Positions 2,870 through 62,770 of a stretch of 64,000 nt of DNA are shown piece after piece (positions within the stretch are counted from its first letter, which is position 1; every line of letters begins with the position of its first letter). A program made the position numbers and the translations under genes. The stretch is from positions 5,840-69,839 of the forward strand of contig DATHVN010000163.1 of assembly GCA_035461305.1 (NCBI GenBank). Reading direction: 5' to 3'. A model generated the notes under the pieces. It had not been told where the DNA came from, made no database searches, and was given only the letters and a program-made list of their open reading frames with translations. This stretch comes from Euzebyales bacterium. Lineage in GTDB: Bacteria > Actinomycetota > Nitriliruptoria > Euzebyales > JAHELV01.

Positions 2870-5434
2870 TCAACTGCGCTGCCACCGCTTGTCCAGCGCG
2901 TCGACGGCGACCACCACCGGCGCGGCGAGCAGCGCGACCGTCCACCCGGTTGCGTCGGGTGGTGCGTGGCCGAGCGCGTCGGCCACGACCGGCACGAACA
3001 GGAACACGGCGGTGATCGCCAGCTCGATCACGACCGCCACGAGCAGCAGCCGGTTGCCGCCCCAGTCGAGCGCGCCGACCCAGCGGGTATCGCTGCGGCA
3101 GGCGAAGGCGTTCGCGGTCTGGCCGATGACCACCGCGGCGAACGTCGCGCCGGACGCGGCGAGCTGCGTGGCGCCCGCGGGGAACGCCATGCCCGGCCGC
3201 CAGCCCGCGGCGACCATGGTGGCGACGAAGGCGCACATGCCCATCAACGCCTCGGACGGGCCGAGCACGCCGAAGCCGCGGCGGGCGACCCTCGCGTCGA
3301 GCAGCCGCCCGCTCGCCGGCGCCGACCGCAGCGTGTTCCGCGTGGGTGGCTCCGCCCCGAGGGCCACGGCCGACAGCGTGTCGGTCCCGATGTCGAGCGC
3401 GAGCACCTGCAGGACACCGAGCGCCAGCGGGAACCGTCCACCAGACAGTGCCCACACGACGAACGGCGTCAGCTCCGCGACGTTGTCGGACAGGTGGTAG
3501 GCCAGGAACCGCCGGATGTTGGCGAACGTCGCCCGGCCGTACTCGATGGCGGCGACGATCGTCGCAAAGTCGTCGTCGAGCAGCACGAGGTCGGCGGCCT
3601 CGCGGGCCACGTCGGTGCCCGACCGGCCCATCGCCACGCCAATGTCGGCCGCGTGCAGCGCCGGACCATCGTTGACGCCGTCGCCGGTCATGGCGACCAC
3701 GTGGTCCCGCCGCTGGAGCGCCGCGGCGATGTGCAGCTTGTCCTCGGGCGCCACCCGGGCGACGACGACCCCGTCGCGATCGACCAGTGCGCCGATGTGC
3801 TCGAGGTCGGAGGGCAGGTCGTCCGATGTCAGCACCGGCGCGTCGGCGTCCGCGAGGCCGACTTCGCGCGCGATCGCCAGCGCTGTGGCGGGGTGGTCGC
3901 CCGTGACCATCGCCACCTTCACGCCCGCCTTTCGGCACGCAGCGACGGCGGCAGCGGCTGCCGGCCTCGGCGGGTCCTCGAGGCCGACCAGGCCCAGCAG
4001 CTCGAGGTGGCGTTCGGCCTCGTCGGCGGTGGCGGCGCGGTCGTCCTCCCAGCGCCGTCGGGCGATCGCCAGGACGCGCAGGCCGCGTGTGGTGAAGCGG
4101 GCGAGCGCGGCGTCCGCCGCGCTGGTCTCGCCAGCGCAGCGCGGCAGCACCGCGTCGGGCGCGCCCTTGACGTACAGCGTCCCGTCGACGACCACCGACA
4201 TCCGGCGACGTCGCGCATCGAAGGGGAAGCGTCGGGTCGGCGGTGAGATCGTCCCGGCGCCGTCGCCGGAGACCCGCCGCGCGAGGGCGTCGAGTGCCGC
4301 CTCCATCGGATCGCCCTGCGCGATCCAGCGGTCGGCGTCACGCACGACCCGGCCCGACGAGCAGCGGACCCCCGCCAGGGCCAGCGCACGCACGGCCGTC
4401 ATGGCGGCGTCAGAGTCGGTGTCGACGGTGCCGGTCGGCTCGTAGCCGGCCCCGCTGACGCGCGCCGCCCCGGCCGCCGTCCATGCCTCCACCACCTGCA
4501 TCTCGTTGCGGGTCAGCGTGCCGGTCTTGTCGGTGCACACGAACGTCGTCGACCCCAGGGTCTCGACGGCGTCGAGGCGGCGGACCAGCGCGTTGCGTCG
4601 TGCCATGCGCTGGGCGCCGATCGCGAGCGACAGCGTCACCGTCGGCAGCAGCCCCTCCGGCACGAGCGCGACGGTCACCCCGATCGCAAACACGACGGCC
4701 TCTGTCGCAGCCGTGCCGACCAGCATTGACACGAGGAAGAACGCGACGCCGACGCCGACCGCGATGGTCGCGATGGTCCGCACCACGCGGTGCAGCTCGC
4801 GCGTCAGGGGGCTGGGCGGGCGGGGCCCGGTCTGGGTGAGCGTGGCGATCTCCGCAAGCCGGGTGTCGCCGCCCGTGGCGGTCACCACCGCCTCGGCTTC
4901 GCCCTCCGTCACGAACGTCCCTGCGAACAGCGGATCTCCGGCGGAGACGTGTGTGGGGACGCTCTCTCCTGTGAGGGTCGACGTGTCGACCGACAGCGCA
5001 TGTGCCGAGGTCGTGGCCAGGTCCGCCGAGATCCGGTCGCCGGCTTCGAGGACGACCACGTCGTCCGGGACGAGCTCGGCGGCATCGATCTGCCGTCGCC
5101 TGCCGCCGCGGATGACGGTGACCTGCCGGGGCAGCAGCTCCCGCAGCCGCTCGGCCGCGCGGTCCGCCCGGTGCTCCTCGACGAACGCGAACACGGCGTT
5201 GACGACCACGACGATCACGATTGCCACCCCGAGCTGTGGCAGGCCGGCCACGAACGCGAACGCCGCGGCGATCCACAGCATCAGGGCGAAGAAGTGGATC
5301 AGCTGGTCGACCAGCCGCCGCCAGGCCGGCGTCGCCGGTGCCCGCGGCAGGACGTTGGGTCCGTGGTCCGCCAGAAGCGCGCCGGCCTCGGCCTCGGTCA
5401 GGCCTGACGGCGGGGACATGTCGACGGCGGGCAT
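2870..5434 (-). CDS. P2-type cation-transporting P-type ATPase (CtpF/Ca2+-ATPase-like)
   Basis: Motifs TGES, PEGLLPT, CTDKTGTLT and TGDGVNDGPAL are present. Start placed at MPAVDMSPPSGLTEAEA (5434; alternative 5419). The 381-codon upstream extension of track ORF 2870..6577 is antisense to the hydrogenase gene and was rejected. Confidence 0.9.
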   Translation of the reverse strand: MPAVDMSPPSGLTEAEAGALLADHGPNVLPRAPATPAWRRLVDQLIHFFALMLWIAAAFAFVAGLPQLGVAIVIVVVVNAVFAFVEEHRADRAAERLRELLPRQVTVIRGGRRRQIDAAELVPDDVVVLEAGDRISADLATTSAHALSVDTSTLTGESVPTHVSAGDPLFAGTFVTEGEAEAVVTATGGDTRLAEIATLTQTGPRPPSPLTRELHRVVRTIATIAVGVGVAFFLVSMLVGTAATEAVVFAIGVTVALVPEGLLPTVTLSLAIGAQRMARRNALVRRLDAVETLGSTTFVCTDKTGTLTRNEMQVVEAWTAAGAARVSGAGYEPTGTVDTDSDAAMTAVRALALAGVRCSSGRVVRDADRWIAQGDPMEAALDALARRVSGDGAGTISPPTRRFPFDARRRRMSVVVDGTLYVKGAPDAVLPRCAGETSAADAALARFTTRGLRVLAIARRRWEDDRAATADEAERHLELLGLVGLEDPPRPAAAAAVAACRKAGVKVAMVTGDHPATALAIAREVGLADADAPVLTSDDLPSDLEHIGALVDRDGVVVARVAPEDKLHIAAALQRRDHVVAMTGDGVNDGPALHAADIGVAMGRSGTDVAREAADLVLLDDDFATIVAAIEYGRATFANIRRFLAYHLSDNVAELTPFVVWALSGGRFPLALGVLQVLALDIGTDTLSAVALGAEPPTRNTLRSAPASGRLLDARVARRGFGVLGPSEALMGMCAFVATMVAAGWRPGMAFPAGATQLAASGATFAAVVIGQTANAFACRSDTRWVGALDWGGNRLLLVAVVIELAITAVFLFVPVVADALGHAPPDATGWTVALLAAPVVVAVDALDKRWQRS

Positions 5435-10909: not shown

Positions 10910-12304
10910 TCAGGCCCCACTGGCCGGCGGCCTGTTGGACACCGCCGGTTCGGACCGCGCGGGATCGCCCGTCCCGTCGGCAGGCGACAGGTGGGTGGTG
11001 AACCAGTCTTTCGCCAGCTCGGCGACACGTTCGAGCGCACCGGGTTCGCTGAACAGGTGGGTGGCGCCGGGCACGACCTCGAGCCGGCTGCCGTGCCCGA
11101 GCTGCGTCAGTGCGCTCGTGTTCAGGTCGAGGACCGGTTCGTCACGACCACCCACGATCAGGAGGGTGGGCGCCTCCACCTGACCGAGCGTCCGCGCCAG
11201 GTCGGGACGGCCACCGCGCGACACGACCGCCGCGACCGCGGGACGCCAGGCGGCCGCGACCAGTGCCGCAGCGGCGCCGGTGCTCGCGCCGAAGTAGCCG
11301 ACCGGTAGTCCCGCGGCCTCCGGTTGCGACTCGAGCCACCGGGTCGCAGTGTCGAGGCGGTTCGCGAGCAACCCGATGTCGAAGACGTTGTTGCGGTCCG
11401 CCGCCTCGTTGGCGTCGAGCAGGTCGAACAGCAGGGTCGCGAGACCGGCGGCGTTGAGCGTCCGAGCGACGGCGGTGTTGCGTGGGCTCTGCCGGCTGCT
11501 GCCGCTACCGTGCGCGAACACCACCATCCCGATCGGATCGGGTGGGACCGACAGGGTGCCGGGCAACCGGGTCCCGTCAGCGGGGATGCGCACGTCACGC
11601 GTCTGGTGCCGCCGCGGGGTCCCGGACGACTCCGCTGCGGCGTGGCCCGAGCCATGGCGGGCCAGCAGGGCCGCCACCTCGTCGTCGCCGACCTGCGTGA
11701 AGTCGGCGTACCACCGGCCGATCGCCATGAAGTGCGTCGGTGTGCGCAGGCAGACCACCTCGTCGGCGCGGTCCCGCATGGCGTCAACGGTCTCCGATGG
11801 TGCCACGGGCACGGCCAGCACGACCTTGGCGGGGTGGCGGGCGCGCACGATGTCGAGGGCGGCGCGCGCCGTGAAGCCGGTCGCCAACCCGTCGTCGACC
11901 ACGATGGCCGTGCGGCCCTCGACCGGCGCCGCCGGCCGGTCTCCCCGGTAGCGGCGGGCACGCCGGTCCACCTCGGCCTGCTCGGTGGCCGTGACGCGCG
12001 CCAACTCCTCCTCGGTGATGCCGAGGCTGGCGATCAGGGGATCGTTGCGGACCTCGAGCCCACCTTGGGCGATGGCACCGATCCCCAGCTCCGGGTGCTG
12101 CGGCCAGCCGAGCTTGCGGACGATGAGCACGTCGAGCGGTGCGTCGAGCCGTGCGGCCACCTCGGCGGCGACGGGCACGCCACCACGTGGGAGGGCGATG
12201 ACGACGGGATGCTCGTAGTCGCGTCGTGCCAGCGCGGCCGCGAGCTGACGCCCGGCGTCCCGCCTGTCGTCGAACCGTCTGGTGTCTGGCGATCGTCTCC
12301 GCAT
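10910..12304 (-). CDS. phosphoribosyltransferase - dienelactone hydrolase (alpha/beta hydrolase) fusion protein (Rv0571c-type architecture)
   Basis: The N-terminal PRT domain has LPRGGVPVA and the PRPP loop VVDDGLATG. The C-terminal hydrolase has FAHGSGSS and the nucleophile elbow GASTGA. Start at MRRRSPDT (12304). Confidence 0.9.
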   Translation of the reverse strand: MRRRSPDTRRFDDRRDAGRQLAAALARRDYEHPVVIALPRGGVPVAAEVAARLDAPLDVLIVRKLGWPQHPELGIGAIAQGGLEVRNDPLIASLGITEEELARVTATEQAEVDRRARRYRGDRPAAPVEGRTAIVVDDGLATGFTARAALDIVRARHPAKVVLAVPVAPSETVDAMRDRADEVVCLRTPTHFMAIGRWYADFTQVGDDEVAALLARHGSGHAAAESSGTPRRHQTRDVRIPADGTRLPGTLSVPPDPIGMVVFAHGSGSSRQSPRNTAVARTLNAAGLATLLFDLLDANEAADRNNVFDIGLLANRLDTATRWLESQPEAAGLPVGYFGASTGAAAALVAAAWRPAVAAVVSRGGRPDLARTLGQVEAPTLLIVGGRDEPVLDLNTSALTQLGHGSRLEVVPGATHLFSEPGALERVAELAKDWFTTHLSPADGTGDPARSEPAVSNRPPASGA

Positions 12305-17886: not shown

Positions 17887-18281
17887 TCGCAGTGACGCCC
17901 GGGGGTGGTGGCTCCCACAGCATGGGCATGGCCAGGAATCCGTCCGCCTGGGTCCGGTCGCCACGCGGCCAGGAGCACGTTGGCACGTTCCGTGATCGTC
18001 GCCAGCACACGTTGGGCCGTAGCGAGATCGTCGCTGCCCAGACCCGCCCACATCTGCGAACGTCGTTCCGGGCCGCTCGGCGTCGAACACCCTCGCCGGT
18101 GACCGCCCGATGCCGGCCACGCCCGCGAACTGGCCGCCGGCGCGTCGCCCCAGCCACCAGGACCAGCCGATCAGCAACGGCGGGGGCCCGTCCGAGCAGG
18201 GTGTCCGAGTGCCCAGAGTCCGCGCGGGCCTGGTGAAACGGGCCTCAGCTTCGCCGCGGGCGCATGCATCGATGATGTGCG

Positions 18282-19821: not shown

Positions 19822-20292
19822 TCACAGGTACGGCTGCGTGGCACGCGACGTCGACCGGTCGTCGGCGCGCTGCGTTGCCAGCCGCATCTCCTCGAGCTGA
19901 TGCTGCGCCGTGAGCTGCTGGCTCCACAGCGTCGCGTGCACCCCCTGCATCAGGCCCTCGAGCCACCCCGTCAGCTGTGCCTGCGCGACGCGCAGCTCCC
20001 CCTGGGTGGGGACCTCGGTGTCGAGCTCGGGCAGCAGGGCACCAAGCTCGTCGGCGAGCTGCGGGCCGACGGCGTCGCGCAGGACGGCGACCGACCGCGC
20101 GTAGATGTCACGGAAGCGGGCACGGGCACGCTCGTCCAGCTCGGTCCCGTGCAGCTCCTGCAGCAGGATACGGGCCATCCATGCCAGCCGCAGCGCCGTG
20201 AACGGTGAGATCTCGTCGCCGCGTGCGTCCTCGGGCTGCGCCTCCGGCACGCCGGAGCGCGGCACGATCACGTGGTCGGACGTCTCGTTCAT
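19822..20292 (-). CDS. bpa: bacterial proteasome activator Bpa/PafE
   Basis: The segment ELRVAQAQLTGWLEGLMQGVHATLWSQQLTAQHQLEEMR matches the conserved Bpa helix of mycobacterial Rv3780. The C-terminus ends in PYL (penultimate Tyr, as in GQYL). Confidence 0.85.
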   Translation of the reverse strand: MNETSDHVIVPRSGVPEAQPEDARGDEISPFTALRLAWMARILLQELHGTELDERARARFRDIYARSVAVLRDAVGPQLADELGALLPELDTEVPTQGELRVAQAQLTGWLEGLMQGVHATLWSQQLTAQHQLEEMRLATQRADDRSTSRATQPYL

Positions 20293-26877: not shown

Positions 26878-28113
26878 CTAGAGGATGCGCGCCACCACCG
26901 GCACGCGGCTGATGAGCAACCAGGCGAGCGCGAACGAGCCGGCGATGCCGCCCCCTGCCACGATGAGCGCCTTGGCCTCGGCCGGCAGCGGTGCGGCGCG
27001 CAGGGCGACGGCGAGTCCGATCAGGACGACGCCCTGCACCATGAATGCACCGTAGGCTCTGCGGGCGAGCACCGGACCCCACCGGATACGACGATCGAGA
27101 CGGCGCTGCGCGACGCCGAGCAGCCACACCGATCCGAACACGGTCAGCGCGGTCTCGATGACGGCGAACACGACCGCCGACCAGTGCCAGCTCCCCATGG
27201 CGGCATCCATCACGTCGAGGACGCTCGCGACGGCCAGGAAAACCGCCATGGCCGCGACCGCCCACAGCGTGATGGCGCCGCACCGTCGGCGGAGCTGGGC
27301 GGGGACGGCTGCCAGCCAGCCCCGCCGGGAGCCGGTGATCCCCAGCGCGAAGACCGCGAGGCACGCGGGCCACTCCCAGTAGTTCAGGTCCCAGAAGCCG
27401 CTCTCGCTCGCGTACGGGTACGCCAGGCGGACCAGGAACGCCGCCGGTGCGGTGGCGGCAGCGACGAGCAGCAGGTGGCGTGCGGTGATCTGGGCGGGTG
27501 CACGTCGGCCGGGGCGGTGCGGCCACACGCGTGCCCATGCCGCATAGGCGAGGGAGAACAGCAGCAGCACACCGACGAACCACAGGACACCGGTGTCGAG
27601 CTGTCGTTCGGGGCCGAGGTAGGCGTCCCAGTAGGAGCCGGGTGCGGCACCCAGTGGGTGCTCGAGCGCGTACATCATCGTGGGCTGCACCACCCCGACG
27701 AATAGGGCGAACGGAACCCCCAGCCGCAGCAGCCGGTCACGCATGAACCGTGCAGTGCCCTTGCGTTCCAGCGATGGCGGGGTGAGCAGGCCGGCGACGA
27801 GGAACAGCAGCGCGATCATGAACAGCCCGAACGGGGTGACGACGACCAGCAGCACCCCCTCGGTCACCGGCGACAGCGTGACCTCCCGCACGCCTGTGTA
27901 CGACCACGCCTCGATCGTTCCCGCGTAGCCCAGGATCGCGTGGAGCGCGATGATCGCCGCGATCAGGACGACCTTGAGGTTGTCGACGTACACGTGCCGC
28001 GTCGACGCCCACTGTTGCACCGCGGAGCCATGTCCGCCTGCTCCCGTCTCGCGAGCAGCACCCGGAGCCGTGATCGTCACGACCTGACCGTCGTGTGCGC
28101 CCCTGCCTGGCAC
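26878..28113 (-). CDS. acyltransferase family 3 integral membrane protein
   Basis: About 10 predicted TM segments and the N-terminal VDNLKVVLIAAIIALH motif typical of acyltransferase_3. Exact start uncertain. Confidence 0.75.
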   Translation of the reverse strand: MPGRGAHDGQVVTITAPGAARETGAGGHGSAVQQWASTRHVYVDNLKVVLIAAIIALHAILGYAGTIEAWSYTGVREVTLSPVTEGVLLVVVTPFGLFMIALLFLVAGLLTPPSLERKGTARFMRDRLLRLGVPFALFVGVVQPTMMYALEHPLGAAPGSYWDAYLGPERQLDTGVLWFVGVLLLFSLAYAAWARVWPHRPGRRAPAQITARHLLLVAAATAPAAFLVRLAYPYASESGFWDLNYWEWPACLAVFALGITGSRRGWLAAVPAQLRRRCGAITLWAVAAMAVFLAVASVLDVMDAAMGSWHWSAVVFAVIETALTVFGSVWLLGVAQRRLDRRIRWGPVLARRAYGAFMVQGVVLIGLAVALRAAPLPAEAKALIVAGGGIAGSFALAWLLISRVPVVARIL

Positions 28114-44256: not shown

Positions 44257-44541
44257 TCAGGCGTCGAGCTTCGTGACGGGCGTTCCCGTCACACCCTCGA
44301 TGTCCTCCGCGGCCGCGTGCAGGAGCTGGTGCGCGAGGTCCGACAGCGCTCGGGCGGCCGCAAGCTCGTCGCCGATCTCGGGCACGTCCCTGTCAGCGGG
44401 GTGCTTGCGCGCGTCGCCACGGCCTCGCAGGTCGGTGGCGTCCTGCGTGTGCAGTCGCGCCTCGGCGTGGGTTCGGACGCCGGCCGCGTCGGAAAGCTCG
44501 GTGAGGTAGATGTCGACGCTCCATTGCTTGGCGATCTGCAT
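44257..44541 (-). CDS. DUF1876 (Rv2632c/Rv1738-like) small protein
   Basis: Start [13 protein letters not shown] follows GGGAGG. The conserved core is THAEARL...[34 protein letters not shown]. Confidence 0.85.
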
Positions 44542-50371: not shown

Positions 50372-52104
<1,733 letters not shown>

Positions 52105-57056: not shown

Positions 57057-57087
57057 GTGACCGGCCATCACGTCGATGGCCGGTCAC
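57057..57087. terminator. perfect 13-bp inverted repeat (GTGACCGGCCATC-ACGTC-GATGGCCGGTCAC) between convergent genes
   Basis: Read from the sequence. It lies between the stops at 57035 (+) and 57238 (-). It has no U-tract, so it is a hairpin-only candidate terminator. Confidence 0.45.
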
Positions 57088-58782: not shown

Positions 58783-59648
58783 GCCGCCGGACCAGGCGCA
58801 TGGGCGTGGGCACCGTCGTCCTGGCGGTGGTGATGCTGGGCGCGCTGGCGCTGTCGACGTACCGCACGGTCCTGCGTCCGGCGTATGCGCACGACGGGAT
58901 CCTGGTCGTGCTCGTCGTCGGCTCGGACGTTGGCCGGCCCTACCGTCCCGGCGATCCACTGCGCGGGCGTGCCGACGCCATCCACCTGGTGGCCGTCGAC
59001 GTCGGCGCGCGGCGTGCGACGGTCGTCGACATCCCGCGCGACTCGGTGATCGGGGGCACGAAGGTCAACGCGCACCTCGCGACCGGCGGTCCCGAGGCGC
59101 TGGTGGCGCAGCTCGAATCCTTCACCGGCCTGACCATCGACCACTGGGTGCTCACCACGTTCCATGGCTTCGAACGGCTGACCGCCGAGCTCGGTGGCGT
59201 GAACGTCGTGGTCGACGAGCCGATGCACGACAGCTCCTCAGGGTCGGACTTCGAGCCGGGACCTGCCCACGTCCAGGGAGCGACGGCGCTGGCGTTCGCC
59301 CGCGACCGGCACTCGCTGTCCGACGGGGACTTCGGGCGCACGCGGCACCAGGGCGAGTTGCTGCTGGCCATCCACCGACGGGTGGTCGGACACCGGCCGG
59401 GGCCGCGTGAGCTCGTCGACCTGGTTGCCACGGTGGGCCGCACCACGGTCTCGGACGTCCCGCTGCCCGATCTGCTCCCCCTCGCGGTGCTGGCCATCGA
59501 CATCGAGCCCGATGCGGTCGACCACGTTCCCCTGTCCGGGCGCACCGCGATGCTGGGCGATGCCTCGGTCGTCTACCTCGAGCCCGGTGACACGTTCGCC
59601 CGTCTCGTCGACGGCCACGTCGGTCCGTCTCCGCCCGCTTCGGACTGA
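58779..59648 (+). CDS. LytR-CpsA-Psr (LCP) family cell-envelope glycopolymer transferase
   Basis: An N-terminal TM segment is followed by VLVVGSD...RADAIHLVAVD...VVDIPRDS...GGPEALVAQLESFTGLTIDHWV...ALAFARDRH. Confidence 0.85.
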   Translation: MSRRTRRMGVGTVVLAVVMLGALALSTYRTVLRPAYAHDGILVVLVVGSDVGRPYRPGDPLRGRADAIHLVAVDVGARRATVVDIPRDSVIGGTKVNAHLATGGPEALVAQLESFTGLTIDHWVLTTFHGFERLTAELGGVNVVVDEPMHDSSSGSDFEPGPAHVQGATALAFARDRHSLSDGDFGRTRHQGELLLAIHRRVVGHRPGPRELVDLVATVGRTTVSDVPLPDLLPLAVLAIDIEPDAVDHVPLSGRTAMLGDASVVYLEPGDTFARLVDGHVGPSPPASD

Positions 59649-59650
59649 CC

Positions 59651-60202
59651 GTGCCTGCCGACGCGCGGCATCGGCTCACAGCATGGGCGGCGGACGCCCT
59701 GACCTTCGGACGGGCCGTGGTGGCGATCGTCATGCCCGGTGTCCTGGCCGCCGGCAACCTCGATGCCGCCGCCATGCTGGTGGCCAGTGCATGGTGCAGC
59801 GACGCGCTGGACGGACGGCTCGCTCGTGCCAGCACACACGAGACACGGCTGCACGGTGTCGACCTCGTGGTTGACACGGCGGTGGGCGTTGGCGTGCTGC
59901 TGGGCCTGGCGCTGGCCGGGTACGCGCCTGTCCTGCCCGTCGTCCTCGCCGTTGCGGCGCTCGGGGGCGCGTTCCTCGTGACAGGCGCCGACGCGCTCGG
60001 CATGGGCCTGCAAGCCGTCGCCTACGCGTGGTTCATGGCCACGCTGTGGGCTGCGGGAGCGGCCTCGCGGTGGCTGCTGCCGTGCGTCGTCGTGGCGTTG
60101 CTCGTCCTCGAGTTCGAGCGGTTCACAACGGTCGTCGCCCCGGGGTTCATCAGCGGCGTGGCCGCCCTGGGACGACGTGTGGCTCGGCGCGGGCGCCGCT
60201 GA
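59651..60202 (+). CDS. CDP-alcohol phosphatidyltransferase family membrane protein
   Basis: The motif SDALDGRLAR...G..DLVVD (D-x2-DG-x2-AR...D-x3-D) sits in a polytopic hydrophobic protein. Confidence 0.7.
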   Translation: MPADARHRLTAWAADALTFGRAVVAIVMPGVLAAGNLDAAAMLVASAWCSDALDGRLARASTHETRLHGVDLVVDTAVGVGVLLGLALAGYAPVLPVVLAVAALGGAFLVTGADALGMGLQAVAYAWFMATLWAAGAASRWLLPCVVVALLVLEFERFTTVVAPGFISGVAALGRRVARRGRR

Positions 60203-60523
60203 GGGGCATGGGGTGCCGGGGTGATCGACGTGTGACAGGTCGGCCCGCTGCTCATCCCTTCACGACGCCCAGCGGGCGCAGCCAAACGCGGTGGCCGCCT
60301 GTGTGCCGACCATCACGTACGAGGCGGCGCCCATCGATCCTCGGATCAACGCTGGCTGGCCGGTCGCGGCGAGGTCGGCGGGGAGGTCGGGGTCGTCCGG
60401 GCGGCAGGATGCGGGTGGCGCGATCGTCGAGCATCATCAGGGTCACCGTCGTCGGTCGGGGACCCGCGCGCCAGGCCGGATGGTCCCCTGGTCAGCGCCA
60501 ACCGTCACGGCGTGTCGGTCCGC

Positions 60524-60571
60524 GGCGGCCACCCGGGGAGACCGGGTGGCGGCCACCCGGGGAGACCGGGT
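60524..60571. repeat. perfect tandem duplication of a 24-bp unit GGCGGCCACCCGGGGAGACCGGGT; each unit holds a 7-bp-stem hairpin CACCCGG-GGAGA-CCGGGTG
   Basis: Units at 60524-60547 and 60548-60571 are identical when read from the sequence. They lie 110-157 nt upstream of sqr start 60681, inside a 478-bp non-coding gap. Confidence 0.9.
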
Positions 60572-60680
60572 CTCGACGACCTGGGTCCAATGGTCCCGCG
60601 CGGTGCGAGGCGGACGCCCCTGCCACGAGGGTCGCGGAATGGGACCCTGATGCCGTCCGACAAGCCACCCGGAGGTCGTC

Positions 60681-61925
60681 ATGAAGCGCCTGCTCGTGCT
60701 CGGGGCCGGGACCGCCGGGACGATGGTGGTCAACACGCTGCGACCGCGCCTGGATCCGCGCGAGTGGCACATCCAGATCGTGGACCAGGACGCGGCGCAC
60801 CACTACCAGCCTGGGTACCTGTTCATCCCGTTCGGCACCTACACCCCCGATGAGGTCGTGCGGCCGCGCTCCAGGTTCATCCCCGACGGCGTCGAGCTCG
60901 TCACGGGCCAGATCGACGAGGTCCGTCCAGATGCGCGGGAGGTCGGGCTGGCCGACGGCGCAGTGCTCGACTACGACCAGCTGGTCATCGCCACCGGCGT
61001 GACGCCACGCCCCGACCAGACCCCGGGCATGCTCGGTCCGGAGTGGCGACGCAGCATCTTCGACTTCTACACGCTCGGCGGAGCGGTGGCGCTGCGGGAC
61101 GCGCTGGCCGGGTGGCAGGGTGGGCGCCTGGTCGTGCACATCACGGAACTGCCGATGAAGTGCCCGGTGGCGCCGCTGGAGTTCGCCTTCCTCGCCGACG
61201 CGCACCTGCGCCGGCGGGGGCTGCGCGATCGCGTCGAGCTGGTCTTCGTCACGCCGCTCGACGGGGCGTTCACCAAACCGATCGCGTCGGCGCGGTTGGG
61301 CGGCATGCTCGAGAAGCGCGGGATCGCCCTGGAGACCGACTTCATGGTCGAGCGCGTCGAGCTGGACACCAGGACGCTCGTGTCCTACGACGAGCGCGAG
61401 ATCCCGTTCGACCTGCTGGTCACGACCCCGGTGAACATGGGCGCAGACTTCGTGGCGCGCAGCGGTCTCGGCGACGAGCTGAACTGCGTACCGGTGGACA
61501 GGCACACGCTGCTGTCGACCCGCTACGACACGATCTTCGCGGTCGGCGACGCGGCCGACCTGCCGACCTCCAAGGCCGGGTCGACCGCGCACTTCTCGAT
61601 CGAGCTCTTCGCGGACAACTTCGTCCGCCACATCAGGGGCGAGGACATGACCGAGGCCTTCGACGGCCATGCAAACTGCTTCGTCGAGGCGGGTGACGGC
61701 AAGGCCCTGCTGCTCGACTTCAACTACGACACGCAACCGTTGCCGGGCAAGTACCCGCTGCCCGTGGTCGGCCCATTCAGCCTGCTCGACGCGTCCACGG
61801 TCAACCACTGGGGCAAGCACGCGTTCAAGTGGGCCTACTGGAACGTGCTGCTGCCCGGCAGGCGCCTGCCACTGCCCGCCCGGATGACCATGGCAGGCAA
61901 GATCCACGAGGAGGTGGCGCGATGA
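60681..61925 (+). CDS. sulfide:quinone oxidoreductase-like FAD-dependent pyridine nucleotide-disulfide oxidoreductase
   Basis: MKRLLVLGAGTAGT (FAD-binding GxGxxG), YQPGYLFIPFG, KCPVAPLEFAF and FAVGDAADLPTSKAGSTAHF are typical of SQR-type flavoproteins. Confidence 0.8.
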   Translation: MKRLLVLGAGTAGTMVVNTLRPRLDPREWHIQIVDQDAAHHYQPGYLFIPFGTYTPDEVVRPRSRFIPDGVELVTGQIDEVRPDAREVGLADGAVLDYDQLVIATGVTPRPDQTPGMLGPEWRRSIFDFYTLGGAVALRDALAGWQGGRLVVHITELPMKCPVAPLEFAFLADAHLRRRGLRDRVELVFVTPLDGAFTKPIASARLGGMLEKRGIALETDFMVERVELDTRTLVSYDEREIPFDLLVTTPVNMGADFVARSGLGDELNCVPVDRHTLLSTRYDTIFAVGDAADLPTSKAGSTAHFSIELFADNFVRHIRGEDMTEAFDGHANCFVEAGDGKALLLDFNYDTQPLPGKYPLPVVGPFSLLDASTVNHWGKHAFKWAYWNVLLPGRRLPLPARMTMAGKIHEEVAR

Positions 61926-62236
61926 CCCTGGCCACGATGGATGGACGCCAGATCCACGTCGACGACGAGGGCTTCCTGACCGAGTACGCCGAGTGGGACC
62001 CCGAGCTCGCGCGCGTCCTGGCCGCGAACATCGGGATCGATCTGACCGACGAGCACCTGCGGACGATCGCGTTCCTGCGCGAGGACTACCGCGAGCAGGG
62101 CGAGACGCCGACGTTGCGGCGCGTCACAGCGGTCGGCGGGATCCCCACCAAGGAGCTGTTCCGGCTGTTCCCGAAGAAGCCCGCCAAGAAGATGGCCTAC
62201 ATCGCCGGGCTGCCCAAGCCCGTGGGCTGTGTCTGA
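61922..62236 (+). CDS. TusE/DsrC-family sulfur-relay protein (single C-terminal Cys, TusE-type)
   Basis: ATGA overlap with sqr. DEGFLTEYAEWDPELA...DEHLRTIAFLREDY... ends in the family signature PKPVGCV. There is no second Cys 10-11 residues upstream. Confidence 0.85.
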   Translation: MTLATMDGRQIHVDDEGFLTEYAEWDPELARVLAANIGIDLTDEHLRTIAFLREDYREQGETPTLRRVTAVGGIPTKELFRLFPKKPAKKMAYIAGLPKPVGCV

Positions 62237-62257
62237 GCGGCGAGGAGGTCGCAGACC

Positions 62258-62770
62258 ATGACAACCATCGCTCCCGCGCCGATTCCGTCGTTCGACGACG
62301 ATCAGGAGACTGCCGGACGCAAGCTGTGCATCATCTGCTCGAAGGGCTCGCTGGACATGGCGTACCCGGGCCTGGTCCTGGCCAACGCCGCGTTGGGCGA
62401 GGGCATCGAGACGCACCTGTTCTTCACGTTCTGGGGCTTCGACATCATCAACCGCGCGACGATGGGCCGCCTGCAGTTCTCGCCGGTCGGCAACCCGGCG
62501 ACGCACATGCCGACAGCGCTGATGGGCCTGCCGGGCATGCAGGCGTTCGCAACGCACATGATGCGCAAGCAGATCGAGGGCATCGACGTGCCCGACGTGC
62601 CGGAGTTCCTCGAGCTGATCACCGATGCCGGAGGGCACCTGTGGGCGTGCCGCATGTCGGCCGACATGATGCATGTCACCGAGGACGACCTGTACGAGCG
62701 GGTCGAGGGCATCATCAGCGCCAGCGACTTCATCGAGCTGTCCGAGGGCGCGCAGACGATCTTCGTGTGA
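62258..62770 (+). CDS. DsrE/DsrF-like sulfur-transfer family protein
   Basis: KLCIICSKGSLDMAYPGLVLANAALGEGIETHLFFTFWG and the C-terminal LWACRMSADMM are typical of DsrE2/peroxiredoxin-like DsrE proteins. Confidence 0.8.
   Translation: MTTIAPAPIPSFDDDQETAGRKLCIICSKGSLDMAYPGLVLANAALGEGIETHLFFTFWGFDIINRATMGRLQFSPVGNPATHMPTALMGLPGMQAFATHMMRKQIEGIDVPDVPEFLELITDAGGHLWACRMSADMMHVTEDDLYERVEGIISASDFIELSEGAQTIFV

What the first reader, a model, noticed from the sequence alone, without database searches (positions are those of the whole stretch)
60203..60680. 478-bp non-coding leader with a perfect 24-bp tandem hairpin duplication upstream of the sqr operon
The gap between the CDP-alcohol transferase gene and sqr has no credible ORF; the track ORFs there are Arg-rich.

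It contains GGCGGCCACCCGGGGAGACCGGGT twice in perfect tandem (60524-60547 and 60548-60571). Each unit folds as CACCCGG-GGAGA-CCGGGTG, a 7-bp stem with a 5-nt loop. This gives two identical adjacent hairpins or, at the DNA level, two identical palindromic operator sites spaced 24 bp apart (about two helical turns plus 3 bp).

Flanking it are further complementary segments: ATGGTCCC at about 60478 and 60591, and GGGACC at about 60641. Perfect identity of the two units in a non-coding region suggests either selection or a very recent duplication. Candidate roles are a repressor operator pair for a persulfide/sulfide-sensing regulator encoded elsewhere, or a structured RNA leader controlling the sulfur-relay operon.
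Basis: seen in the sequence. Interest (0 to 1): 0.55.

Follow-up and report, generated by a model that had tools for sequence, protein, structure and literature searches.

The report
Young tandem hairpin duplication upstream of sqr
The perfect 24-bp tandem repeat is real, but it is a recent, strain-specific duplication in unconstrained spacer DNA between a dead rtcB gene and the sqr promoter, so it is most likely ordinary; the conserved control elements lie just downstream of it.

Summary
GGCGGCCACCCGGGGAGACCGGGT occurs twice in perfect tandem at 60524-60571. An independent assembly of the same strain carries the same repeat.

The interpretation mostly fails. None of seven related sqr leaders (79-92% SQR identity) has the repeat or even one unit. 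Their homologous DNA is diverged and forms no hairpin. No other copy exists in the window, in 169 related loci or in viral contigs. There is no Rfam hit and no covariation. The unit does not match the CstR operator that 66 of 154 orthologous leaders carry.

Homology with relatives resumes exactly at the 3' end of the repeat. A 51-nt conserved block (60575-60625) follows, then a likely -35 (CTGCCA) and -10 (GACCCT). This puts the repeat about 84-131 bp upstream of the inferred transcription start, outside the mRNA leader.

The gap is also not purely non-coding. The minus strand at 60255-60446 is a frameshifted, internally deleted rtcB relic.

Best reading: a young, probably neutral slippage duplication. 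At most it acts as an incidental terminator or insulator.

Side finding: orthologous sqr promoters across Actinomycetota carry DosR/OsdR-type boxes overlapping the -35. The window's own copies are degenerate.

The parts
60524..60547 (.). Tandem unit 1, GGCGGCCACCCGGGGAGACCGGGT. With the first 7 nt of unit 2 it forms a 13-bp (one mismatch) stem with a 5-nt loop at 60524-60554.
   Evidence: TRF; repeats D1 and I7; fold -28.2 kcal/mol, z -5.8; the most stable of the 21 hairpins with stems of at least 11 bp (one mismatch allowed) found in the window.
60548..60571 (.). Tandem unit 2, identical to unit 1. Its own hairpin has only a 6-bp stem because 60572 is C.
   Evidence: fold -11.7 kcal/mol, z -0.1.
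60255..60446 (-). rtcB pseudogene relic. It is 5'-truncated and frameshifted, lacks about 70 codons including the CHGAG catalytic-histidine motif, and keeps the native C-terminus LRPLGVVKG plus stop. It is found only in this strain.
   Evidence: Pfam PF01139 E 6.8e-8 and 6.9e-7; PDB RtcB chains E 5e-6; tblastn reference residues 234-275 to 60400..60275, E 6e-13; residues 228-240 and 346-354 in the other frame; weak third-position GC signal; no RtcB hit in the 166 loci fetched by then.
60458..60495 (.). 38-nt block conserved with L001 (84%). It contains the inverted repeat GGGGACC-N15-GGTCCCC. Function unknown. It scores weakly as a DosR/OsdR-like box on the minus strand (6.5 bits).
   Evidence: blastn; alignments; matrix scan.
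60496..60523 (.). Diverged spacer, alignable with L001 at low identity.
60575..60625 (+). Conserved promoter-upstream block. It holds a distal palindrome GGGTCCAATGGTCCC (60583-60597; GGGNC-N4-GNCCC format with one extra base) and a proximal half-degenerate box GAGGCGGACGCCCCTG (60607-60622). The proximal box overlaps a putative -35, CTGCCA (60620-60625).
   Evidence: Homology with L001, L087, L002 and L005 starts at 60570-60574. Identity is 88-92% with L001/L087, against 76-78% at 4-fold sites. nhmmer finds it in all relatives and nowhere else in the window. Box comparison.
60643..60648 (+). Putative -10 hexamer GACCCT. All eight aligned leaders read NANNCT here. It sits 38 nt before the ATG, the same position as the TAGCGT -10 of other actinobacterial orthologues. 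Inferred, not mapped.
   Evidence: Alignments; position of CTAGCGT at median -38; no TA dinucleotide in 60572-60680; no canonical sigma-70 match.
60671..60675 (+). Shine-Dalgarno sequence GGAGG, 5 nt before the sqr ATG at 60681.
   Evidence: Sequence; conserved in alignments.
60681..62770 (+). sqr-like flavoprotein (60681-61925), DsrC/TusE-like gene (about 61930-62236) and DsrE-like gene (62258-62770).
   Evidence: Pfam; synteny in L001, L002, L005, L006 and L167.

Best explanation
The 2 x 24 bp repeat is a young, strain-specific tandem duplication. It probably arose by replication slippage or template switching at a small palindrome. It lies in the least constrained stretch of the intergenic DNA, between a decaying rtcB relic and the conserved sqr promoter.

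Shown:
- The repeat is exact and read-supported, since two assemblies carry it.
- It is absent from all relatives.
- It replaces a diverged homologous segment that does not fold.
- It ends 3 nt before the point where conservation with relatives begins.

Inferred:
- The ancestral single unit held only a 6-bp hairpin.
- The unit's 5' end, GGCGGCC, is nearly self-complementary. Duplication therefore automatically created the 13-bp stem of hairpin 1.
- The sqr promoter (-35 CTGCCA at 60620-60625, -10 GACCCT at 60643-60648) lies downstream. The repeat then sits about 84-131 bp upstream of the transcription start, is not part of the sqr mRNA, and is not needed for regulation.
- Regulation resides in the 51-nt conserved block, which looks like degenerate DosR/OsdR-type boxes overlapping the -35.
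- Any effect of the repeat is incidental, for example a U-less hairpin that damps read-through from the upstream operon.
For: - Exactness and uniqueness.
- Same repeat in a 99.9%-identical independent assembly.
- Absent from L001 and L087 (92% SQR identity), L088/L089, L002, L005 and L006.
- Homology boundaries at 60570-60574.
- The unit aligns to diverged DNA in L001.
- The equivalent segments of relatives have fold z-scores from -0.6 to +1.6.
- Four-fold-site divergence between window and L001 is K4 = 0.28, about 0.14 per lineage. The expected number of differences between the two copies is about 6.7 x f, where f is the fraction of the branch since the duplication. Zero observed differences give f below about 0.45 at 95%. 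No selection is needed to explain the identity.
- The adjacent rtcB relic shows that this gap has been decaying and rearranging.
- No coding signal across 60435-60660.
- No Rfam hit and no covariation.
- Promoter placed by conservation and by register with orthologues.
Against: - Hairpin 1 is the most stable of the long-stem hairpins found in 64 kb, and it abuts the conserved promoter block. Selection for a new terminator, insulator or operator cannot be excluded.
- The age bound is loose.
- Four-fold sites in a 72% GC genome are not strictly neutral.
- The transcription start is inferred, not mapped. A promoter upstream of the repeat is not excluded.
- Only 64 kb of this genome could be searched for further copies.
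Confidence: 0.62

Rival explanations
1. The duplication created a functional factor-independent terminator or insulator. Hairpin 1 (13-bp GC-rich stem) stops read-through from the LytR / CDP-alcohol transferase operon before it reaches the sqr promoter.
For: - It is the most stable long-stem hairpin found in the window (-28.2 kcal/mol).
- Other strong U-less hairpins in this window sit at gene ends, for example 57057-57087 between convergent genes.
- It lies between an upstream co-oriented operon and the promoter.
Against: - No T-tract, and the terminator scan found 0 sites.
- It lies 320 nt beyond the upstream stop codon.
- Relatives with the same gene order lack any comparable hairpin, so the function is at best new and dispensable.
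Confidence: 0.17
2. The two palindromes, plus the junction palindrome GGGTGGC-G-GCCACCC, form a lineage-specific operator array for an unidentified regulator of the sulfur operon encoded elsewhere.
For: - Exact palindromic symmetry and 24-bp spacing.
- Position immediately upstream of the promoter block.
- Orthologous leaders carry repressor boxes at comparable distances from the ATG, -28 to -163.
- The outer half-sites CCACC/GGTGG loosely recall ATACC/GGTAT.
Against: - Not conserved in any relative.
- The spacer is 11 nt, not 6, and the CstR matrix score is -37 to -51 bits.
- No match to the DosR/OsdR-type box.
- No second site in the window, the loci or viral contigs.
- No CsoR-family gene in the window.
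- A position 84-131 bp upstream of the inferred start is poor for simple repression.
Confidence: 0.1
3. The hairpins are part of a structured 5' leader RNA (attenuator, stabiliser or riboswitch-like element) of the sqr mRNA.
For: Strong local folding of the 61-nt segment (z -3.2).
Against: - No Rfam hit at E up to 10.
- The whole leader folds with z = -1.2.
- No conserved structure or covariation across eight leaders.
- Relatives lack the hairpins.
- The conserved promoter-like elements lie downstream.
Confidence: 0.04
4. The repeat is an assembly or sequencing artefact.
For: The window comes from a metagenome-assembled genome.
Against: An independently deposited MEGAHIT contig (contig name prefix k141) has the identical 478-bp gap, with 7 differences elsewhere in the 5.8 kb compared. 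A 48-bp repeat is shorter than a 141-base k-mer and than typical reads.
Confidence: 0.02

Closest known systems
Short tandem duplications from slipped-strand mispairing or template switching at palindromes in bacterial intergenic DNA
   Same: Exactly two head-to-tail identical copies of a short unit. The unit contains an inverted repeat. The repeat is strain-specific and sits in unconstrained DNA next to a decaying pseudogene.
   Different: No flanking microhomology is visible. The repeat is exactly 2.0 copies and the bases at 60523 and 60572 do not extend it. The duplication also happens to create an unusually stable 13-bp hairpin.
CsoR-family persulfide sensor operators: CstR, and ScCsoR of Streptomyces coelicolor (ATACC-N6-GGTAT, PMC7533328; S. 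mitis cst operator ATATACCCTTATGGGGTATAT, PMC8643695)
   Same: A GC-rich pseudo-palindrome upstream of a sulfide-oxidation operon. 66 of 154 orthologous sqr leaders carry a true box of this kind.
   Different: The window's unit is CCACC-N11-GGTGG, with the wrong half-site ends and the wrong spacing. Matrix score is -37 to -51 bits, against at least 11.9 for true boxes. No box was found anywhere in the window or in the seven closest leaders.
DevR/DosR (Mycobacterium tuberculosis) and OsdR (S. coelicolor) binding sites: TTSGGGACTWWAGTCCCSAA (PMC2275270); AGGGCCGATCGGCCCT, with listed sites CGGGACCTTCGGCCCT and AGGGACCTTCGGCCCC (PMC5069765). The proximal site overlaps the -35 (PMC3029386).
   Same: This applies to the conserved block, not to the repeat.
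- Orthologous sqr leaders carry GGGAC(C/G)TTCG(G/C)C(N)CTG exactly 36-37 nt before the -10.
- The window has five strong boxes elsewhere, including upstream of Rv1738-like and Rv0571c-like genes.
   Different: The window's own sqr promoter keeps only a weak distal palindrome with one extra spacer base (4.8 bits) and the right half of the proximal box. The tandem unit itself does not match. No DosR-type regulator is encoded in the window.
U-less ('I-shaped') stem-loop terminators proposed for high-GC Actinobacteria (from general knowledge, not checked in the literature here)
   Same: A GC-rich perfect stem without a T-tract in an intergenic region. Similar hairpins sit at gene ends in this window.
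   Different: It lies far (320 nt) from the nearest upstream stop codon and is not conserved in relatives with the same gene order.

Membership tests
CsoR/CstR operator | Pseudo-palindrome ATACC-N6-GGTAT with a central C/G tract | tested here: not met
   The unit is CCACC-N11-GGTGG. A matrix built from 66 orthologous boxes scores it -37 to -51 bits. The best score in the gap is -13.5 and the lowest true box scores 11.9.
CsoR/CstR operator | Present in orthologous promoters of the same operon | tested here: not met
   None of the 8 Nitriliruptoria-type leaders has a box, although 66 of 154 leaders overall do.
CsoR/CstR operator | A CsoR-family (DUF156) regulator encoded in the genome | tested here: inconclusive
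The rest of the genome was not available.
Intrinsic (factor-independent) terminator | GC-rich stem-loop | tested here: met
   13-bp stem, -28.2 kcal/mol.
Intrinsic (factor-independent) terminator | T/U tract immediately 3' of the stem | tested here: not met
   The hairpins are followed by CACCCGG and CTCGACG. The terminator scan found 0 sites.
Intrinsic (factor-independent) terminator | Transcript 3' ends at the hairpin | not testable with these tools
   No transcriptome data are available.
Cis-regulatory leader RNA (riboswitch or attenuator) | Match to a curated RNA family | tested here: not met
   An Rfam search at E up to 10 over 59500-61500 gave nothing in the gap.
Cis-regulatory leader RNA (riboswitch or attenuator) | Structure conserved, with compensatory changes, in orthologous leaders | tested here: not met
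   RNAalifold gave -7.6 kcal/mol with a covariation term of -0.11. The hairpins are absent in relatives.
Cis-regulatory leader RNA (riboswitch or attenuator) | Lies within the transcribed 5' UTR | tested here: inconclusive
   The inferred -35 and -10 lie 3' of the repeat. The transcription start is not mapped.
Dispersed repeat family (REP- or MITE-like) | Multiple copies in the genome or in related genomes | tested here: not met
   No other copy was found in the 64-kb window, in 169 loci totalling about 1 Mb (apart from same-strain L167) or in viral contigs.
DosR/DevR/OsdR box (conserved block 60575-60625, not the repeat) | 16-20 bp palindrome of the form GGG(A/C)C-N4-G(N)CCC | tested here: inconclusive
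   - Orthologues: 81 of 140 leaders score at least 12 bits (the matrix was trained on 59 of them).
- Window: the distal site scores 4.8 bits with a 5-nt spacer, and the proximal site keeps only its right half.
- Relatives: L005 distal site 13.6 bits, L089 proximal site 11.5 bits.
DosR/DevR/OsdR box (conserved block 60575-60625, not the repeat) | Proximal site overlaps the -35 at a fixed distance from the -10 | tested here: met
   The distance from the GGAC start to the -10 start is 36 nt (36 leaders) or 37 nt (14 leaders) in all 50 leaders that have both words. The window's proximal half-box sits in the same register, 36 nt before GACCCT.
DosR/DevR/OsdR box (conserved block 60575-60625, not the repeat) | The same box lies upstream of dormancy-regulon-type genes in the same genome | tested here: met
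   Five hits of at least 15 bits, against 0.23 in shuffles. They lie upstream of an Rv1738-like gene (PF08962; PDB 4wpy E 3e-16), a phosphoribosyltransferase plus dienelactone-hydrolase gene with Rv0571c-like architecture, a bacterial proteasome activator (BPA) gene and an Acyl_transf_3 gene.
DosR/DevR/OsdR box (conserved block 60575-60625, not the repeat) | Bound by a NarL-family DosR-type regulator; induced by hypoxia, NO, CO or H2S | not testable with these tools
   No DosR homologue lies in the window. L022 has one (E 2e-47) next to a 20-bit box.
rtcB pseudogene (60255-60446, minus strand) | Significant similarity to RtcB, with a disrupted reading frame | tested here: met
   Pfam E 6.8e-8; tblastn E 6e-13. 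The similarity is split over two frames, about 70 residues including the CHGAG motif are missing, and the N-terminal roughly 225 residues are absent.

The most novel reading that the evidence does not exclude
The duplicated palindromes are a newly evolved operator array: three palindromic centres 12 bp apart. They would bind a so-far unknown Euzebyales-specific regulator that took over sulfide or persulfide control of the sqr-tusE-dsrE operon. In this lineage the operon lacks the CstR box, and its DosR/OsdR-type boxes have degenerated.
Probability: 0.07. Interest if true: 0.5.

Novelty: new member of a known kind. Interest (0 to 1): 0.25.

Why it matters
As a regulatory element the repeat matters little. 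It is one strain's recent duplication, and it shows that perfect identity in non-coding DNA is more often a sign of youth than of selection.

The re-examination matters more for three other reasons.

1. **The gap is not a simple leader.** It holds a dead rtcB gene and a promoter that starts only after the repeat.
2. **Regulatory inputs in relatives.** Orthologous sqr-tusE-dsrE operons across Actinomycetota show two recognisable inputs. One is a CstR-type persulfide repressor box. The other is a DosR/OsdR-type activator box locked to the -35.
3. **A testable link to dormancy signalling.** If the second input is confirmed, sulfide oxidation would be tied to the hypoxia / NO / CO / H2S dormancy regulon. 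This fits the report that DosS binds H2S (PMC9062744).

Tried and rejected
- **Small ORFs across the repeat.** No frame-specific GC signal at 60435-60660, and the products are Arg/Pro-rich. Rejected.
- **RtcB relic extending under the repeat.** Pfam on all three minus-strand frames, and tblastn with a clean RtcB reference, gave only low-complexity noise above 60446. Rejected.
- **Word-indexed protein search with the relic.** No candidates found; the search was wasted. The exhaustive representative search then gave RtcB fragments.
- **Exact look-ups of the window's SQR protein.** Not on record. The same strain was reached instead through cluster member P0168.
- **A second copy of the conserved block in L002 (2963-3005).** blastn gave E 5e-5. 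A model built without that copy gave only 9 bits, E 2.4. Treated as unconfirmed.
- **ECF-sigma or sigma-54 readings of the conserved block.** By inspection of the alignments, the spacings do not fit (about 21 nt between GAAC and CGCC), and Actinobacteria lack sigma-54 (general knowledge). Dropped.
- **The GGGTC-NAAC-GACCC element as an RNA hairpin.** By inspection, the substitutions among leaders do not preserve pairing. Dropped.
- **A G-quadruplex from the four G3+ runs created by the duplication.** The middle loop would be 12 nt and the competing hairpin is far more stable. Considered only by inspection and not pursued.
- **Canonical sigma-70 and terminator scans.** 0 hits.

Full report
**1. 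The observation**

The gap between the stop codon of the upstream gene (TGA at 60200-60202) and the sqr ATG (60681) is 478 bp. Tandem Repeats Finder (TRF) reports 60524-60571 as period 24, 2.0 copies, 100% matches, score 96. This is the top score among 69 arrays in the window. The 24-mer matches only these two places at up to 3 mismatches, and no match appeared in 100 shuffles.

The palindrome is CACCCGG-N5-CCGGGTG. It is exact in unit 1 and has one mismatch in unit 2, because 60572 is C. Unit 1 pairs on into the start of unit 2, giving 13-nt arms that are 92% complementary. Folded as RNA:
- 60524-60554 gives -28.2 kcal/mol (z -5.8).
- Unit 2 alone gives -11.7 kcal/mol (z about 0).
- The 61-nt segment containing both gives -41.9 kcal/mol (z -3.2).

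A census of hairpins with stems of at least 11 bp (one mismatch allowed) found 21 in the window. This one is the most stable.

A contig from a separate ENA assembly (L167) is collinear with the window. It differs at 7 of 5820 positions, none of them in the gap, and therefore carries the same repeat. The repeat is real and not an assembly artefact.

**2. Context**

The window is 72% GC. Its SQR-like protein is 100% identical to one from a Euzebyales MAG.

Downstream of the gap lie the sqr-like gene, a DsrC/TusE-like gene and a DsrE-like gene. Upstream lie a LytR_cpsA_psr gene and a 183-aa ORF that just reaches the Pfam cut-off for CDP-alcohol phosphatidyltransferase.

**3. The gap is not purely non-coding**

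Codon-position GC shows a weak frame signal at about 60210-60434 and none at 60435-60660.

The minus-strand peptide ...DDPDLPADLAATGQPALIRGSMGAASYVMVGTQAATAFG... hits:
- Pfam RtcB, E 6.8e-8, above the curated cut-off.
- Solved RtcB structures.

I built a clean RtcB reference from representative hits and ran tblastn against the gap:
- Residues 234-275 align to 60400..60275 (57% identity, E 6e-13).
- Residues 228-240 (ATRAFPPGHPDLP) align in another frame at 60419..60381.
- The native C-terminus LRPLGVVKG plus stop lies at 60281..60255.

About 70 residues, including the CHGAG motif, are missing from the middle, and the N-terminal roughly 225 residues are absent. No RtcB signal is detectable above 60446. 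No other rtcB copy was found in the window or in the 166 loci held at that point. This is a decayed rtcB relic, convergent with the upstream gene.

**4. Comparative test of the repeat**

I fetched orthologous loci by three routes: exact protein look-ups, a scan of species-representative genomes and a scan of metagenome contigs.

The seven closest distinct leaders have 79-92% SQR identity. None contains the repeat or a single unit.

blastn shows where homology lies:
- Window against L001: 58701-60202, then a 38-nt block at 60458-60495, then 60570-62300.
- L087 starts at 60570, L002 at 60574 and L005 at 60572.

Conservation therefore begins exactly where the repeat ends.

A global alignment shows that one unit corresponds to diverged homologous DNA in L001: GGTGAACACACATACCGGTGCAACGGATCGCCACGTC. 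That segment folds no better than shuffles, and neither do the equivalent segments of L088, L006, L002 and L005 (z from -0.6 to +1.6).

The palindrome is absent from all 169 loci except the same-strain L167, and from viral contigs.

**5. Age of the duplication**

Four-fold-site divergence between the window and L001 is K4 = 0.28, about 0.14 per lineage. Two 24-nt copies would accumulate about 6.7 differences over that whole branch. Zero differences means the duplication is younger than about 45% of the branch at 95%, and it is probably much younger. Perfect identity therefore needs no selection.

The long stem of hairpin 1 is a by-product of the duplication. The unit's 5' end, GGCGGCC, is almost its own reverse complement. 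Placing a second unit after the first extends a 6-7 bp stem to 13 bp.

**6. RNA-leader hypothesis**

- Rfam at E up to 10 finds nothing in the gap.
- The 184-nt leader folds with z = -1.2.
- RNAalifold on eight leaders gives -7.6 kcal/mol with a covariation term of -0.11.

**7. Operator hypothesis**

66 of 154 unique orthologous leaders (Nocardioides, Terrabacter and others) carry ATACC-N6-GGTAT with at most 1 mismatch. This is the motif determined for ScCsoR (PMC7533328). It is close to the streptococcal cst operator (PMC8643695).

A matrix built from these boxes gives:
- at least 11.9 bits for every true box;
- -37 to -51 bits for the tandem units;
- -13.5 bits for the best site in the gap (the background median for 478-nt windows is -7.7);
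- no site above 12 bits anywhere in the window, and best scores of -3.7 or lower in the seven closest leaders.

No CsoR-family ORF is found in the window.

**8. What is conserved instead**

The block 60575-60625 is 88-92% identical to L001/L087. Four-fold sites are 76-78% identical. The block is 65-69% identical to L002, L005 and L006. An nhmmer model of the block finds every relative's leader and nothing else in the window.

There is no TA dinucleotide in 60572-60680 and no canonical sigma-70 match. All eight aligned leaders nevertheless read NANNCT at 60643-60648 (GACCCT in the window). This keeps the A at position 2 and the T at position 6 of a -10 hexamer. CTGCCA lies 17 nt upstream of it.

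This register matches the wider family. Among 146 leaders, the most over-represented 7-mers are:
- GGACCTT, in 47 leaders against 1.5 expected, median position -77;
- CTAGCGT, in 45 leaders, median position -38;
- ATACCCC, in 42 leaders.

In all 50 leaders that contain both GGAC(C/G)T and TA(G/A)C(G/T)T, the start-to-start distance is 36 or 37 nt.

I therefore infer a -35 at 60620-60625, a -10 at 60643-60648 and a transcription start near 60655. The repeat then lies about 84-131 bp upstream of the start. This step is inference, not mapping.

**9. Identity of the conserved box (side finding)**

GGGAC(C/G)TTCG(G/C)CCCT matches, almost base for base, OsdR sites listed for Streptomyces coelicolor: CGGGACCTTCGGCCCT and AGGGACCTTCGGCCCC (PMC5069765). 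It also fits the DosR consensus TTSGGGACTWWAGTCCCSAA (PMC2275270). DevR target promoters are characterised by a proximal site overlapping the -35 and by closely packed cooperative sites (PMC3029386).

A matrix built from the sqr leaders finds five sites of at least 15 bits in the window, against 0.23 in shuffles. The four that were examined are each followed at +35 or +36 by NANNNT. They lie upstream of:
- an Rv1738-like gene (PF08962 E 6.5e-33; PDB 4wpy E 3e-16);
- a phosphoribosyltransferase plus dienelactone-hydrolase gene with the architecture I recall for Rv0571c;
- a bacterial proteasome activator (BPA) gene;
- an acyltransferase gene.

Rv1738 and Rv0571c are DosR-regulon members. L022 encodes a DosR homologue (E 2e-47) beside a 20-bit box.

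Of 140 non-Nitriliruptoria leaders, 81 have a box of at least 12 bits, 64 have a CstR box and 41 have both. The matrix was trained on 59 of these leaders, so the box count is partly circular.

The window's own sqr promoter is degenerate:
- The distal palindrome GGGTCCAATGGTCCC has one extra spacer base and scores 4.8 bits on the minus strand.
- The proximal site GAGGCGGACGCCCCTG keeps only its right half.

Relatives retain better copies: L005 distal 13.6 bits and L089 proximal 11.5 bits. The tandem unit does not match this box.

**10. Verdict**

The repeat is a genuine, young, strain-specific tandem duplication in spacer DNA between an rtcB relic and the sqr promoter. It is most likely neutral (confidence about 0.6).

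An incidental terminator or insulator role (about 0.17) and a new operator (about 0.1) remain possible but have no comparative support.

H2S sensing by DosS has been reported (PMC9062744), which makes the DosR-box link to sulfide oxidation the more interesting lead from this locus.

Noticed in passing
window 60255-60446 (minus strand): Relic of an rtcB (RNA ligase) gene. It is frameshifted, internally deleted and 5'-truncated, and its native stop codon is retained. It was not found in any of the 166 related loci searched.
   Followed up: yes
Orthologous sqr leaders L009-L166; for example L048 and L016 (sqr at 3001) and L028: Rigid promoter architecture. A 16-nt DosR/OsdR-type box GGGAC(C/G)TTCG(G/C)C(N)CTG lies exactly 36-37 nt before a (C)CTAGCGT -10. 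It is present in 81 of 140 leaders at 12 bits or more. This suggests that sqr-tusE-dsrE operons of many Actinomycetota belong to a DosR-like regulon.
   Followed up: partly
window 44620(-), 28130(-), 20396(-), 19330(+), 12424(-): Five strong DosR/OsdR-type boxes (15.7-22.8 bits; 0.23 expected). The four minus-strand boxes precede an Rv1738-like gene (44257-44541), an acyltransferase (26878-28113), a bacterial proteasome activator (19822-20292) and a phosphoribosyltransferase plus dienelactone-hydrolase gene (ending at 10910). The gene downstream of 19330(+) was not identified.
   Followed up: partly
66 of 154 orthologous leaders, for example L053 -43, L146 -62, L047 -37: Canonical CsoR/CstR box ATACC-N6-GGTAT. 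It occupies one of three positions: abutting the DosR-type box upstream, in the spacer abutting the -10, or near the ATG. 41 leaders have both box types. Only 6 loci have a CsoR-like gene within the flanks fetched (up to about 3 kb).
   Followed up: partly
L022 1-606 (minus strand) and 615 (plus strand): A close DosR homologue (phmmer E 2e-47) lies 2.4 kb upstream of sqr, with a 20-bit box at its divergent promoter region.
   Followed up: no
window 60458-60495: 38-nt block conserved with L001 (84%) inside otherwise unalignable DNA. It holds the inverted repeat GGGGACC-N15-GGTCCCC. L001 has GGTTCCC, which keeps pairing only as a G-U pair on the plus strand. Its function is unexplained.
   Followed up: partly
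L002 2948-3022: Possible second copy of the conserved sqr promoter block, upstream of a 205-aa gene with no Pfam match (3048-3665). blastn gave E 5e-5, but an independent model gave only 9 bits (E 2.4).
   Followed up: yes
window 57057-57087: Perfect 13-14 bp GC-rich hairpin (-26 kcal/mol) without a T-tract, lying between two convergent genes. It is a likely U-less bidirectional terminator.
   Followed up: no
window 60203-60680: Only one TA dinucleotide (about 60317) occurs in the whole 478-bp gap, and none in 60572-60680. The -10 elements of this genome appear to be NANNNT rather than TANNNT.
   Followed up: partly
L062, L054, L073 (Trueperaceae MAGs): Close SQR homologues (66-67% identity) occur in Deinococcota contigs. 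Their leaders contain GGGGACGTTCCACC. This hints at horizontal transfer of the operon together with its promoter.
   Followed up: no
window 51995-52029 and 17968-18034: Other tandem arrays: (GTCGCC) x 5.8, perfect, and a 32-nt unit x 2.1 at 80% identity. Both are probably inside coding regions.
   Followed up: no
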